The notes under the pieces are model-generated. The model was not told where the DNA came from and made no database searches. It saw only the letters and a list, made by a program, of their open reading frames with translations. A stretch of 44,604 nt of DNA. Source: Mesotaenium endlicherianum. Taxonomy: Eukaryota. Made by a program: the position numbers and the translations under genes. Numbering within the stretch: position 1 is the stretch's first letter; each line of letters opens with the position of its first letter. The stretch lies in the NCBI GenBank assembly GCA_009602735.1, contig WELA01002318.1, positions 271,939 to 316,542 on the forward strand, read 5' to 3'. Shown here in pieces: positions 12,997 to 18,007 of this stretch.

Positions 12997-15900
12997 ATGA
13001 AGGTCCTGCAGATAATGCGCCTACTGCCCTCTCAAACTTTCGCTGGAAGTCGAGCCTTTCGCTCTTTGGGAAGGTGCCAACCGGTCTGTATGAGAAACTC
13101 CTTGACGACATGTGCATCTCTTCCTTTACAACTTTCCCATATTCATACATATTGCTTGTTCTCGAGCACTCCAGTCAAGTTTAGGTTGCAATCGTCTTCA
13201 AAAGCTACAAGTGATACAGCTTTTGAAGAATGGCTGGCTTCCAACCCGTATCCTCAAGGAGGGTCACGTCAGCATGCAGTCAAAGAAGACGAGAAAGAGA
13301 ATGGAGGCATCGATCCAGGCCTTGGCTATTCAACAGCCAACAGGAACTACATACATGATGAAGATTCAGATGCAGATGCAGAGGCTTTCGGGGGCACAGA
13401 AAGTGACGAGGATACTGCTAGCGAGTTAGGATCCAATTATGGCTCATTAGAGCCAGGGCTTGCCCAGGACTCATCTACGCATATAGCCCACATCTTGAGT
13501 TCAAGAAATGGCTGGCGTCTGGAGGACTTCCTGGTAGCAGGCGCGAACGACCAAAGTTTGCGCTTCTCGTGGAAAGACACAAGGGATGCGTTGTATGCCT
13601 GCTCGCAGAAATTTGACATGGAGTGGGATCGTGACAGGTCTTGCTTCTCTGAGGTAAAAAAGAGACCCTATTGCACAAAAAAGTAATTATATTTAAAAAA
13701 AATTCATATATATATATGTGTATATATATATATATATATATATATATATATATATATATATATATATATATATATATATATATATATATATATATATATA
13801 TATATATATATATATATATATATATATATATATATATATATATATATATATATATATATATATATATATATATATATATATATATATATATATATATATA
13901 TATATATATATATATATATATATATATATATATATATATATATATATATATATATATATATATATATATATATATATATATATATAAATCCCGTGAAACA
14001 GTGCAGCGCCCCCAGCGGTATGTGAGCAGCTGTGCATGTCTGAGCAAGGATCGAGCTTTGCTTTAACCTTCACCTCTCCCTTAAGAGGCCTCATTCATGT
14101 GGATCCACAATTTTGTTAGAGTGAAGTTACACATATATGACACATTCAAAGCTGAGTCCTTCAGCAAGCATAGCGTTCTTGCATGCTGAGTACTCCGGAA
14201 GGCACTGAATGCCTCTGAGGCTCATTCGCGTTGCAGCAAATCTGGAGTGGAATTATCCAATGGCTGCCTGCCACATCCTCTTTGAATCTCATAGGACTGC
14301 AGCAATGCCTGCAGGGGTTTTAACAGGTAAACCTTGGAGGAGCTTCAGCCAGGAGGCTGGAACTTCGTCCCCCTCTAATTCAGTCTGTTCCGCCCTCCAT
14401 CACCTCAGTCTCCAGGTAAGCTTCAGAGGCCGCATGCATGACCTGAAGGGGCCCCATTAACCCTTCACGGGGGGGAAACATGCGTCTCCCTTCTTGAGCA
14501 AGCATCATGCATGGGGCCAACTGAGAGCATGCTTCCAGTGGCGCTCTTGAACCAGGCCTGAGTGATCGCTTGGTCAATGATATGGTGACGTATGAGTACA
14601 TCATGTGTGATAAAGTACTGATAATGCTCCCAATAGATGCTACCTTGCACTCCGAGGCAGTGCAGCCCGTGGTCTCACGCAGGGGAGTATTCGACACAGG
14701 GTCTGGGCTCTGCACTGAGGACGAGGCTGGCGTGCGAGTGTGGAGGGGTGCAGTTACCTGGCGTGGCTGCAGACTGAGGAGCAACAGAGCGCGCCAGGTG
14801 GCGGCCTGGCGGGGTGCCACCTGGTGGCCCTCGTGTGCTCCAGCGCTGCAGCTCTGGGCATCTTCAGAGGAGGCTCTCTCGTCAAGCACAAGGTCAGCTA
14901 GACCCCCCGGCTGCTGCTGCTCTGTCTCAGATCAGCGACCCTCAGGTTAGTGACATGTGTTTTAGCGACATGCGTCAGCAATGTGTGCTCGTGATGGGTG
15001 GACAGCACCAGTCCTGTTATAGGTTTACAATTATTGTACCTAGCGTGTGGCTCTTGAGTCTCCGGGTGGCGTGGAAGGCCCGCCCTCTTTCTTGAGAATA
15101 TCTTCTTCTTGGGTTGGAATGTTTCCTCGAATAGAGATTGTGGGCATGAATTCAAATCTAAAATGCCACCTGCACATGCACGTCTGCGTTGCGATGTCTA
15201 CGCGGCCATAGCGTCCTGCATCACCAACAGCACGACGTGTCAGATTTGAATAATGGGCCCAAACACACTTACCTGCATGTCTGTGTCACTGGGGAGCTAA
15301 AGAGGATCACGTCATGCCCTATGACAACAACGCTGACTCTGCTGCTAGTCAGCCGCATGTGCCGAGAAGTGTCAACAGCGCAGTTGAAACCGGACGTGGA
15401 GTACTCCGACAGGACAGGTGGCGAGCGCGGGGCCATGGAGGTGCCACTCTTCCAACGTGCCGCATGGACGCTGACTCCCAAGGCCCACCTCCTCTCCTTC
15501 TCTCCTCTCCTCTCTACTCTCCTCCCCCCTCCCCCCTCTCCTTGTCGAAACCACGTTCGAGATGCGCGTTCAAGGCACTGCCACGTGCATCCTCCTCGTG
15601 CCTCTGTGCTCCGAAGCCGGTCCTCCTTGCCCCGCCGTGCGCGTGCTCTCCTCCCTCTCAGACTCCGGCCCTTGCGTGCGTTGCGTGCATCCAACGCGCG
15701 CAATTGGGGGATGGATCCACCACCAATGGGGCGTGCGCGCGCATATGCAGGTCATAACGGCATACACCGTGCGGGCGAAGCAGGGGAAGGCGCAGCTGAG
15801 CCACCTCAGAGCGGGCGGCAGCAGCGGCCGCATGTCGGTGGGCGGTGGCGTCCGAGCCCGCGAGACCCGCCGCCTCTTCTCCGCCATCAACCAGGTCAGC

Positions 15901-18007
15901 CCCAGCCCCAGCCCCAGCCCCAGCCCCAGCTGCATCTTGGCGATCTGGTATTGATGGTCGACTTGGCAAACAATCTCCCGGTCAGCTTGACGATCGGGCT
16001 TGCTCAAGGGGTCCCCCGATATGAAGTGTTGTGCTCCACTGTGCTCAACCATGCCAGTAGAATCCGACTGCCCTGTCTCTCAACCGGGTCCTTTGCCTGG
16101 CACTGGTTGTCCCAAGTAGAGCACATGTCACTGTTTCAGACTTAGACCCTGCATTTTTATTCTGGAACTCACATCCATCAAGAAAATGGGTGCCTCCCCC
16201 CGCGTGTAGCAGCTTGAGCAACGGCTGTGGTAGGTTTTGCTCCCTTTCCTCGCTCCTGTGGTCCAGACTCTTCTGCTCCTGTTCTGTGTCCAACTCGCGG
16301 GGCGTCAGAGTGGCAGAAGAGAGAAAAGTTGCCATCCGCCACGCCTCTTTAACTTCTGATGTCCTCCTATCCGTCCCCCTATCCGTCCCCCTCCCCGTCC
16401 CCGTCCCCGTCCCCCTCTCCCTTCCCCTTCCCCTCCCGCTCGCCCCCCACTTTTCCTCCGCGCCTCTTGCCCTCTTGCCCTCTCGCCTCCCTCCTCCCGC
16501 CTCCAGCTCTCTCTGTTGCATCGTGTGCTACTGCTTCCAATTGAAACAAACTGACCAGCGTGAGCGAACGAGCGGGCGGGCGGGCAATGTGAAGCAGAAG
16601 CTGGGGGAGTGGGAGGAGGACGTGCGCGGCTGCCGCCACCTCTTCTACAGCGGCAACATGCGCGTGTGGAACGAGGTCCGGCTCCCCCTTGCCTGCTCCT
16701 GCCTCCTGCCCCCTGCCTCCCCTTTAGCCGAGCTGCCCCTGCCCTTTCCGCCAGCTGTCCCCCCTTCACCCGCTAGCCCGTGCTGATGTGGTCATTTAAC
16801 GGGTTTTGGCTCCTCGCGTGCGCGCCTGCCTGCCCCTCATTGTTTCCCAGAGGGCATTTGAGCTCCACTGCCACCTGGCACTACACCTGGGCCGTTTGCC
16901 TCCGTCATGCAGCCAACGAAGGTGCACACTGTCACATTTTCGTTCCACCTCTCAGAGTAGGCGGCTCTCCGGAAGCTCAGCTGCGCAGCTGAGCCCTGGC
17001 AAGTTGGCGTGTGCATGCGTGTGTGCACGCGTGCATGCACAGCAGCACCTTCTGTAGGAGCCGGAACAGTCGAGGGAAAGAAGGCGTGCTTCTAGGTTTG
17101 CAGTTGCATGCGCGTGCGTGTGCGTGTGTGCATGTGTGCGTGCATGCGTTGTAACTAACATGAGGTGGTTAAGGGGGGAGGCGTGTGCTGGTGTCGTGCG
17201 CAGGTGTACGCATGCCGGGATCCCCCGCCCTTCCTGGACAGGAGGGACGAGCGCTGGCAGAAAGTGCCCACCAGCGTTCGCAGACCCCGCCTGAAGGAGC
17301 TCTCGAGGTGCGCCGCCCCCCCTCCCCTCCCCTCCCCTTCCCCNCAGCTTCCAGAAAAGGCTTCATTTTCTCATCCATTCTTCTTCTCCTAGTAAGCGCA
17401 CCCTTGGCTCTTCGTGTGACGGCTGGCTGGCTGCCCATCGATTTCCCTGGGAGGATTTCAGTCTCAGCCCATTCTCAGTCTCCACTCCATTCTCAGCTAG
17501 CCCAACCTCTCCCTGCTCTCCTCTGCAGGCCACTCACTCATCATGCGAGCGGCCAGGCTACCTTCCTAATCAGGCACTCGCAAGCATTGCTGGTATCCCG
17601 GCAATTGCAGGTGCTCCGTGAGGTGGTGGGGGGCGAGGGAGGGCCGTTGCTGCTGTGCTATCTATCTCCTTGCGTTGGGCACTGCGAAGCCCTCCGTTGT
17701 ACCGCCGGGCTGTGGGGAGGGTTTCTTCTTGGGGAGTGCCCCCCTCTTGGGAAGGGGCCCCTTCTTGGGGCGCATCCCCCTCTTGGGGAGTGTCCCCCTG
17801 TTGGGGAGTGTTCCCTTCTTGGGGAGTGCCACCCTCTTGGGGAGCGCCCCTTCTTGGGGAGTGCCTCTTCTTCTGAACTTGATGTGCGTGTGTGATGCGT
17901 GTGTTTGCTGTGACTGGTGCAGGGTGATGTACTTGCTGAGTCACGGTGCTGTTCATTTCCGAGACGTGGAGGTGGAGCTGGATGACGGCACACAATTGAA
18001 GCAGTGA
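12997..18007 (+). CDS. Vms1-like release factor (VLRF1 superfamily, Bacteroidetes bVLRF1-like) with putative organellar presequence; 7 exons, 431 aa
   Basis: Exons 12997-13653, 14327-14415, 14754-14892, 15751-15894, 16598-16675, 17204-17307, 17923-18007 (1296 nt, all GT-AG, phases 0,2,0,0,0,2). Spliced core: ...LELRPPL...[142 protein letters not shown]. [17 protein letters not shown] and RRPxLKEL are VLRF1/Vms1/ANKZF1 hallmarks. Confidence 0.9.
13721..13986. repeat. (TA)n microsatellite, ~133 units, in intron 1 of the VLRF1 gene
   Basis: Uninterrupted TA run; source of the IYIY pseudo-ORFs. Confidence 0.98.
17729..17870. repeat. Minisatellite, ~8 x 17-18 bp (TTGGGGAGTGCCCCCCTC), in intron 6 of the VLRF1 gene
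   Basis: Direct reading; units are slightly diverged. Confidence 0.9.

What the first reader, a model, noticed from the sequence alone, without database searches (positions are those of the whole stretch)
12997..18007. Intron-containing, bacterial-type Vms1-like release factor (bVLRF1): candidate organellar ribosome-rescue factor
Seen: seven exons, scattered across unrelated-looking ORFs, splice into a 431-aa protein with [62 protein letters not shown] and RRPRLKEL. No C2H2 finger, ankyrin repeats or C-terminal extension is present. Established: VLRF1-clade proteins (yeast Vms1, human ANKZF1) release nascent chains from stalled 60S subunits by cleaving peptidyl-tRNA, using a loop with a conserved Gln. 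The eukaryotic forms are multidomain and cytosolic, whereas Bacteroidetes have a compact stand-alone form. Inference from recalled motifs: QGKxQLxHL, INxKLxEW and PPF..DER resemble the Bacteroidetes form more than plant ANKZF1. This suggests a separately acquired gene now resident in the nucleus; six spliceosomal introns argue against contamination. I know of no characterised organellar VLRF1 pathway in green plants.
Basis: partly seen in the sequence, partly recalled or inferred. Interest (0 to 1): 0.9.

Follow-up and report, generated by a model that had tools for sequence, protein, structure and literature searches.

The report
Green algae's second Vms1-like rescue factor
This expressed seven-exon nuclear gene encodes a compact, bacterial-looking relative of the ribosome-rescue enzyme Vms1/ANKZF1, found in green algae, mosses and liverworts; its leader peptide suggests it is likely imported into mitochondria, where it would free unfinished proteins from stalled ribosomes, a route not found in the papers searched.

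Summary
Seven exons with GT..AG introns give exactly 431 aa. All six junctions have transcript support, one from a single contig. Residues 190-418 match a whole 220-aa bacterial protein (41% identity). A moss orthologue's model has the Vms1 fold, and the residues yeast Vms1 needs are kept. Zinc finger, ankyrin repeats and VIM are absent. The gene belongs to a clade whose named members are all green algae, mosses or liverworts. It is not a truncated ANKZF1 (AU p 2e-7). A basic, acid-free leader precedes a clade-specific motif in 12 of 13 members that carry the motif, pointing to organellar, probably mitochondrial, import. This is composition only. Corrections: the nearest prokaryotes are planctomycetes of the Ca. 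Uabimicrobium class, not Bacteroidetes. The catalytic loop is of the eukaryotic type, not the bacterial one. Separate acquisition is favoured only slightly, because trees flip between it and a sister-paralogue origin. A 2019 supplement already lists six green-algal proteins under bVLRF1; I found no comment on them in the parts read. This scan noted bacterial and Naegleria VLRF1 genes before, not this family. Location and activity are untested.

The parts
12770..12996 (+). 5' leader (start approximate), with seven upstream ATGs at 12777-12986 opening ORFs of 1-30 codons
   Evidence: RNA depth begins about 12770-12830; ATG list
12997..13653 (+). Exon 1 (aa 1-219): leader, family motif, acidic linker, start of the bacterial-homologous part
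12997..13212 (+). Predicted organellar presequence, aa 1-72: no Asp/Glu, 9 Lys/Arg, 25% Ser/Thr; cleavage site not known
   Evidence: rest of the protein is 13.9% Asp/Glu
13222..13254 (+). Family motif F/W-x-x-W-x-x-x-NPxP (aa 76-86), upstream of the part shared with the bacterial relatives
   Evidence: found in 13 of 24 green rows; alignment
13255..13563 (+). Acidic, unconserved linker (aa 87-189), predicted disordered in the moss orthologue
13564..17965 (+). Span coding aa 190-418, collinear with a whole 220-aa bacterial VLRF1 (N-terminal extension plus eRF1-like core)
   Evidence: 41% identity over 229 columns to L241
13700..13985 (.). (AT)n microsatellite in intron 1; not covered by the read lays
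14315..14326 (+). Alternative acceptor 12 nt upstream of exon 2; adds an in-frame stop
14327..14415 (+). Exon 2
14754..14892 (+). Exon 3 (first core strands)
14893..15750 (+). Intron 3, often retained or holding an alternative transcript start
   Evidence: sense depth about 5-19 in the two stranded raw runs X8 and X14; X1 contig runs 15170-15889
15751..15894 (+). Exon 4: catalytic loop with Y300 (15763), R303 (15772), G307 (15784), Q310 (15793-15795)
16598..16675 (+). Exon 5
17204..17307 (+). Exon 6
17923..18007 (+). Exon 7, coding part with stop
18008..18300 (+). 3' UTR (end approximate)
   Evidence: depth falls after about 18260

Best explanation
This expressed nuclear gene encodes a compact Vms1-like (VLRF1) protein of a green-lineage family distinct from ANKZF1, which is likely imported into an organelle (mitochondria most likely) and is predicted to release unfinished chains from split large ribosomal subunits that still hold peptidyl-tRNA. 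Shown: gene structure, expression, family, conserved catalytic residues, lack of accessory domains. Predicted: the Vms1 fold (moss orthologue). Inferred: the basic leader is an import signal, removed before the NPxP motif; the core enters the empty A site and the Gln loop reaches the peptidyl transferase centre. The chemistry is probably cutting off the tRNA 3' CCA, as reported for Vms1/ANKZF1 and rice OsVms1, with ester hydrolysis as the alternative. No Cdc48 or ubiquitin step would be needed, which fits the missing VIM. Origin, inferred at about 55-60%: transfer from a planctomycete near the Ca. Uabimicrobium class into the ancestor of green plants, with the catalytic loop later coming to resemble the eukaryotic one.
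For: Fold: AlphaFold2 on Sphagnum P0012 with 108 prokaryotic rows gives pLDDT mostly above 90 over residues 231-456. The top matches are yeast Vms1 (Foldseek E 3e-7; Z 11.8, rmsd 3.5, 179 aligned). Residues: yeast Y285, R288, G292 and Q295 matter for function (PMC5989216 passages) and align without gaps to Y300, R303, G307, Q310; 24 of 24 green rows keep all four. Family: 20 green rows form one clade, 100/97, roughly following the species tree (Cymbomonas; streptophytes 99/89; core chlorophytes 95/89). Every eukaryote named is a green alga, moss or liverwort. Leader: 12 of 13 motif-bearing rows have at most one Asp/Glu and net charge +2 or more in the first 25 aa. Among 59 prokaryotic proteins 7 have at most one Asp/Glu and 13 have net +2 or more. 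Several leaders are short (20-51 aa) and Arg-rich, as mitochondrial presequences are (recalled). Donor: L241 (G078, same class as Ca. Uabimicrobium sp. HlEnr_7) scores 178 bits, above the best Bacteroidota (113) and best canonical eukaryote (57); its contig is bacterial. With canonical rows ignored, green joins the Uabimicrobium-like group in 971 of 1000 bootstraps. With residues 296-337 removed, that grouping holds against the canonical clade in 818 of 1000.
Against: No localisation or activity data, and no targeting predictor was available. 11 of 24 green rows lack the motif; some are clearly partial models, but Chlorokybus P0179 starts acidic. The Closterium leader is 134 aa and Pro/Ser-rich, more plastid-like (pattern recalled). 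With 20 green rows and all columns, the canonical clade attaches at the green stem in 823 of 1000 bootstraps; three quick trees did the same; AU does not reject that sister grouping (p 0.415). The loop is eukaryote-like: 11-13 residues in 23 of 24 green and 104 of 106 parsed canonical rows, but 10 in 130 of 130 parsed prokaryotes. The column removal was chosen after seeing this. A large share of transcripts looks unproductive. Mitochondria already have other rescue factors (ICT1, mtRF-R).
Confidence: 0.5

Rival explanations
1. Same organellar function, different history: one bacterial gene entered early eukaryotes and duplicated. One copy gained the zinc finger, ankyrins and VIM and evolved fast (Vms1/ANKZF1). 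The other stayed compact and slow and survives only in green plants. The donor of all eukaryotic Vms1 would then be planctomycete-like rather than Bacteroidetes.
For: Canonical clade sister to green in 823 of 1000 bootstraps; AU p 0.415. Shared loop length, Ser/Thr two residues before the post-loop Gly (23 of 24 green, 104 of 106 canonical, 1 of 130 prokaryotes), and Thr after the Tyr.
Against: Needs loss in all other eukaryotic lines; no non-green eukaryote was among the named hits (most hits are unnamed). The signal drops to 114 of 1000 without the loop and was 98 of 1000 with fewer green rows. The canonical stem is about 2.4-2.9 substitutions per site, so long-branch pull is likely. Columns shared only with Uabimicrobium-like rows outnumber those shared only with canonical rows 7 to 3.
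Confidence: 0.35
2. The protein works on cytosolic 60S subunits, possibly at the mitochondrial or plastid surface, as a Cdc48-independent backup to ANKZF1. The leader would tether it or be cleared, and the eukaryote-type loop would reflect a 60S substrate.
For: The loop resembles canonical Vms1. The yeast Vms1 core itself localises to mitochondria (PMC5989216 passages).
Against: An unconserved, acid-free, basic leader ending just before the first conserved motif is the usual pattern of a cleaved import signal (pattern recalled). The Rei1-type finger proposed to bind the 60S is missing.
Confidence: 0.2
3. Plastid or dual targeting rather than mitochondria alone, replacing rescue routes such as tmRNA/SmpB that the plant line lost.
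For: Streptophyte leaders are long (71-133 aa) and partly Ser/Thr- or Pro-rich. PMC6514570 says tmRNA/SmpB appears lost in the plant lineage.
Against: Several chlorophyte and unnamed leaders are 20-51 aa and Arg-rich; the window's first 40 aa give a high helical hydrophobic moment, 0.63.
Confidence: 0.2
4. A truncated orthologue of ANKZF1, a pseudogene, or bacterial contamination.
For: Pfam PF18826 also covers canonical Vms1 and scores it higher (about 150-210 bits on full domains) than prokaryotes (110-122), so the Pfam name proves nothing. Many transcripts look unproductive.
Against: Nesting in the canonical clade is rejected (p 2.4e-7). Reads are spliced, the frame is intact and the neighbours are plant-type genes. 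Public moss and Closterium gene models break at positions matching introns 1, 3, 4 and 5 (indirect). Klebsormidium has a separate 690-aa entry in the canonical list (listing only).
Confidence: 0.03

Closest known systems
bVLRF-1 family (Burroughs and Aravind 2019, PMC6514570; Pfam PF18826)
   Same: Core plus the N-terminal extension, no fused Pfam domain, GxuQ motif, 41% identity to a planctomycete member over its whole length. The paper's supplement lists six green-algal proteins here; one of them (Klebsormidium GAQ88565) falls in this clade.
   Different: Nuclear, six introns, 189-aa leader and linker with its own motif, catalytic loop 11-13 residues with S/T-x-G instead of 10 with R/K-x-G. 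I found no experiment on any bVLRF-1 member.
Yeast Vms1 / human ANKZF1 / rice OsVms1 (eVLRF-1)
   Same: Fold, Tyr/Arg/Gly/Gln catalytic set, loop length and S-x-G.
   Different: No Rei1-type finger, ankyrins, VTC or VIM; mean 22% identity; separate clade; predicted organellar instead of cytosolic.
Mitochondrial rescue factors mtRF-R (C12orf65)/MTRES1 and ICT1
   Same: Predicted job: clearing peptidyl-tRNA from stalled organellar large subunits. PMC12453390 calls mtRF-R/MTRES1 analogous to Vms1/ANKZF1.
   Different: Those use the bacterial GGQ release-factor fold; this uses the eRF1/RNase H-like fold.
Compact eVLRF-1 forms of kinetoplastids and Naegleria
   Same: Eukaryotic VLRF1 without finger or ankyrins (PMC6514570 section 2.2).
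   Different: They carry an alpha-helical or F-box N-terminal domain. None was named among my hits and none is in my trees, which is a sampling gap.

Membership tests
VLRF-1 clade | eRF1-like RNase H-fold core closest to Vms1 | tested here: met
   Model of orthologue P0012; Vms1 top at Z 11.8, rmsd 3.5, 179 aligned; the window's own spliced protein was not folded
VLRF-1 clade | GxuQ motif with catalytic Gln and upstream Tyr/Arg | tested here: met
   Y300, R303, G307, A309, Q310; 24 of 24 green rows keep Y, R, G, Q
VLRF-1 clade | Release of nascent chain from large subunit-peptidyl-tRNA | not testable with these tools
   needs biochemistry
bVLRF-1 | N-terminal extension to the core and no fused domain | tested here: met
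   aa 190-270 align to the bacterial N-terminus; PF18826 is the only family in 14 of 15 green proteins scanned; the exception, P0157, has an aminopeptidase P region that another model treats as a separate gene
bVLRF-1 | Loop of 10 residues followed by R/K-x-G (defined here from the prokaryotic set) | tested here: not met
   window 13 residues, S-x-G; 130 of 130 parsed prokaryotes have 10, with 21 of 151 unparsed
bVLRF-1 | Branches inside the prokaryotic family, apart from eVLRF-1 | tested here: inconclusive
   887, 175 and 818 of 1000 bootstraps; AU p 0.415 and 0.34
bVLRF-1 | Nearest to Bacteroidota | tested here: not met
   AU p 1.2e-4 (the 8 Bacteroidota rows are not one clade in the free tree, which inflates the rejection); scores favour the Uabimicrobium class
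eVLRF-1 (Vms1/ANKZF1) | Rei1-like C2H2 finger | tested here: not met
   no Pfam hit in exon 1; no pattern
eVLRF-1 (Vms1/ANKZF1) | Ankyrin repeats, VTC, VIM after the core | tested here: not met
   protein ends about 20 aa after the core; 3' UTR follows
eVLRF-1 (Vms1/ANKZF1) | Nested within the canonical clade | tested here: not met
   AU p 2.4e-7 for joining four AKAG-loop canonical rows, taken as green-lineage from recall
eVLRF-1 (Vms1/ANKZF1) | Longer loop with S-x-G | tested here: met
Organelle-imported protein | Basic, acid-free, unconserved leader before the conserved part | tested here: met
   12 of 13 motif-bearing rows; 11 of 24 rows lack the motif
Organelle-imported protein | Import and processing; which organelle | not testable with these tools
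   no predictor, no proteomics
Second paralogue | Canonical ANKZF1 present in the same genome | not testable with these tools
   no genome held; five green algae have two entries in the 2019 lists, by listing only

The most novel reading that the evidence does not exclude
Green plants ancestrally carry a second Vms1-type factor, taken from a planctomycete related to Ca. Uabimicrobium, fitted with an import leader and used as an eRF1-fold rescue nuclease inside mitochondria. Its bacterial scaffold carries a eukaryote-type catalytic loop, through convergence or recombination with ANKZF1. It persists in chlorophytes, streptophyte algae, mosses and liverworts and may have been lost in vascular plants (none among my named hits; not tested as absence). 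In the alternative history it is a slow-evolving sister that points to the donor of all eukaryotic Vms1.
Probability: 0.35. Interest if true: 0.85.

Novelty: new variant of a known kind. Interest (0 to 1): 0.62.

Why it matters
Organellar ribosome rescue is described in the papers read as the work of bacterial-type GGQ factors and, in a few lines, tmRNA. An eRF1-fold factor inside an organelle would be a further route. If it cuts tRNA, it implies organellar tRNA repair. I found no experiment on the prokaryotic bVLRF-1 family; this gene offers a knockout and localisation test in algae or moss. The family also reopens where eukaryotic Vms1 came from: the nearest prokaryotes to this eukaryotic branch are planctomycetes, not Bacteroidetes. 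The tempering facts are that the domain is catalogued, algal members were listed in 2019, and location and activity are untested.

Tried and rejected
No whole genome is held, so a canonical ANKZF1 in this organism could not be sought. The run search listed no holder on record as RNA; raw RNA runs came in by species label. AlphaFold2 on 7 green sequences failed (pLDDT 33) and was not used. The search for related loci found nothing. tblastn of plasmids: no match. The word-indexed search with P0004 returned two Sphagnum proteins and one unnamed close fragment, a sensitivity limit. ESM Atlas: top hits were bacterial bVLRF1 clusters at 0.89, below its 0.9 mark, so a lead only. The first tree had three badly trimmed rows (L250, L257, L261), dropped later along with short or redundant rows; the trees used 55-64 of several hundred sequences and no root. 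One search (3 green rows) gave green+Uabimicrobium class 100/97, which did not survive fuller sampling unchanged. PF18826 was rejected as a test of bacterial type. NCBIfam has no model for P0012 or the L241 protein. The genes around L241 suggested no translation-related context (one locus only; L269 and L270 not analysed). Cyanobacteria and Alphaproteobacteria were not searched; 0 of 14 control genomes rang. Two key papers (PMC6226276, PMC6344051) are not held; the CCA-cleavage mechanism is taken from passages of PMC11897441. No complex prediction was run, as no partner protein is claimed.
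Full report
Observation. The seven exons join through six GT..AG introns into a 431-aa frame holding all quoted motifs. Raw RNA runs of the same species label support the junctions. 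e1-e2 has 17 reads in 4 of 4 runs. e2-e3 has 25, e3-e4 has 10 and e5-e6 has 36 reads. e4-e5 has a 3-read loose end, and e6-e7 has only one contig whose RNA status is a guess. Only 6-24% of each run was read. Neighbouring genes are plant-type: a TPR_27/MYND gene and a kinase with chitin-binding exons. In the trees the protein sits among streptophytes (99/89), so the host is likely a streptophyte alga (inference). Some transcripts look unproductive: an acceptor at 14315 adds a stop (10 reads against 17), and intron 3 has exon-like sense depth, where retention would stop before the catalytic Gln.

Anatomy. Residues 1-72 hold no Asp/Glu and 9 Lys/Arg. A motif at 76-86 follows, then an acidic linker to 189. 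Residues 190-418 match almost the whole of a 220-aa bacterial protein, L241, at 41% identity, and the protein ends shortly after. The Sphagnum orthologue P0012 (56% identical over 234 aa) was folded with 108 prokaryotic rows: confident core, disordered N-terminus. Its best matches are yeast Vms1, then aRF1/eRF1, Pelota and Balon. Y300, R303, G307 and Q310 correspond to yeast Y285, R288, G292 and Q295 (alignment; mutant data in passages of PMC5989216).

Family. Named members: Sphagnum, Calypogeia, Closterium, Klebsormidium, Chlorokybus, Cymbomonas, Myrmecia, Apatococcus, Chlorella, Tetraselmis, Ostreobium and Bryopsis. The full HMMER search found 1665 clusters at E up to 0.001 and listed 150 without names. 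I looked up 10 of the 126 new ones; 6 clusters carried a name or accession, all green where an organism was given. No vascular plant or non-green eukaryote was among the named hits, which is not proof of absence. Twenty green rows form one clade (100/97) that roughly follows the species tree. Thirteen of 24 green rows carry the NPxP-type motif, and 12 of those 13 have a basic, acid-poor first 25 residues; 7 of 59 prokaryotic proteins are that acid-poor. The 11 others include clear fragments and one acidic start (Chlorokybus).

Relatives and origin. A green profile hit 22 of 401 genomes of that phylum, 3 of 9 of that class, 2 of 6, 1 of 201 and 2 of 301 in three other phyla; the best was G078 (L241). 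A scan of metagenomes gave 115 unnamed canonical-type Vms1 pieces as the eukaryotic set; it is fungus-heavy and lacks kinetoplastids and Naegleria as far as I can tell. Nesting inside the canonical clade is rejected (p 2.4e-7). So is grouping with Bacteroidota (p 1.2e-4), though those rows are not one clade in the free tree. Where the long canonical branch attaches is unresolved. Green joins the Uabimicrobium-like group in 887 of 1000 bootstraps with 9 green rows (bootstrap not fully settled), 175 with 20 green rows, and 818 with 20 rows when residues 296-337 are removed. Green is sister to canonical in 98, 823 and 114. AU rejects neither. Six of the nine Uabimicrobium-like rows are unnamed proteins placed there by the tree. 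The conflict maps onto the protein: the scaffold is planctomycete-like, while the loop is Vms1-like in length (11-13 against 10) and in S/T-x-G against R/K-x-G. I put separate acquisition at about 55-60% and an ancient sister paralogue at about 35%.

Mechanism. By homology, the core would dock in the A site of a split large subunit and free the chain from P-site tRNA. Passages of PMC11897441 describe Vms1/ANKZF1 and rice OsVms1 cutting off the 3' CCA; PMC5989216 and PMC6514570 describe it as peptidyl-tRNA hydrolysis. The leader makes an organellar substrate likeliest: mitochondria about 55%, plastid or dual 20%, cytosol or surface 20-25%. These are judgements, not computed values.

Prior knowledge. 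Of PMC6514570 I read sections 2.2 and 2.3 whole, keyword passages elsewhere, and supplement parts 1, 73, 74 and 95 of 117 (the file is cut). The supplement lists six green-algal proteins under bVLRF1, five of them again in the eukaryotic list, and those five species have a further entry there. The text I read does not discuss them or any organellar role. I checked the sequence of one of the six (GAQ88565 = P0048) and it is in this clade. Paper searches for VLRF1+Bacteroidetes, bVLRF1, VLRF-1, Vms1+chloroplast+ribosome rescue, Uabimicrobium+transfer+green algae, Vms1+50S+bacterial homolog and plant mitochondria+mtRF-R listed nothing describing this family; I saw listings and abstract starts for most. 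Subscription papers, including the 2018 Vms1 papers, were not readable. Of PMC12453390 I read passages.

Verdict. A real, expressed, conserved gene and a new variant of a known kind: a compact, leader-bearing VLRF1 family of green plants. The donor is corrected, the origin is left open, and the loop is not bacterial-type. Interest 0.62.

Noticed in passing
window 32600-44400 (-): Kinase exons (Pkinase) and three Cys-rich chitin-binding (Chitin_bind_1) exons further 5' on the same strand; possibly a hevein-domain receptor-like kinase. Whether they form one gene was not tested.
   Followed up: partly
window about 41500-44604: Tandem duplication with a period of 1486 bp that repeats the chitin-binding exon with identical translation; could be exon duplication or an assembly artefact.
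   Followed up: no
window 19830-22200 (-): Plant TPR_27 plus zf-MYND gene.
   Followed up: partly
window 12777-12986, 14315-14326, 14893-15750: Seven upstream ATGs, a stop-adding alternative acceptor and heavy intron 3 coverage suggest post-transcriptional damping of this gene. An in-frame ATG at 15562 in intron 3 could start a short form lacking the first core strands.
   Followed up: partly
P0157 (Apatococcus lobatus): Gene model fuses the VLRF1 protein to an aminopeptidase P that is a separate model in A. fuscideae; probably an annotation merge.
   Followed up: partly
P0197, P0292: Unnamed prokaryote-type VLRF1 proteins with long C-terminal additions that look by eye like tRNA nucleotidyltransferase head and HD domains. 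If so, this links bVLRF1 to CCA repair and would favour tRNA cleavage (resemblance recalled, not scanned).
   Followed up: no
L031, L058: Records titled Limnohabitans carry Algoriphagus-like bVLRF1 genes; possible mislabelling or misbinning.
   Followed up: no
window 4561-5112 (-): Coding-looking frame with no Pfam hit.
   Followed up: no
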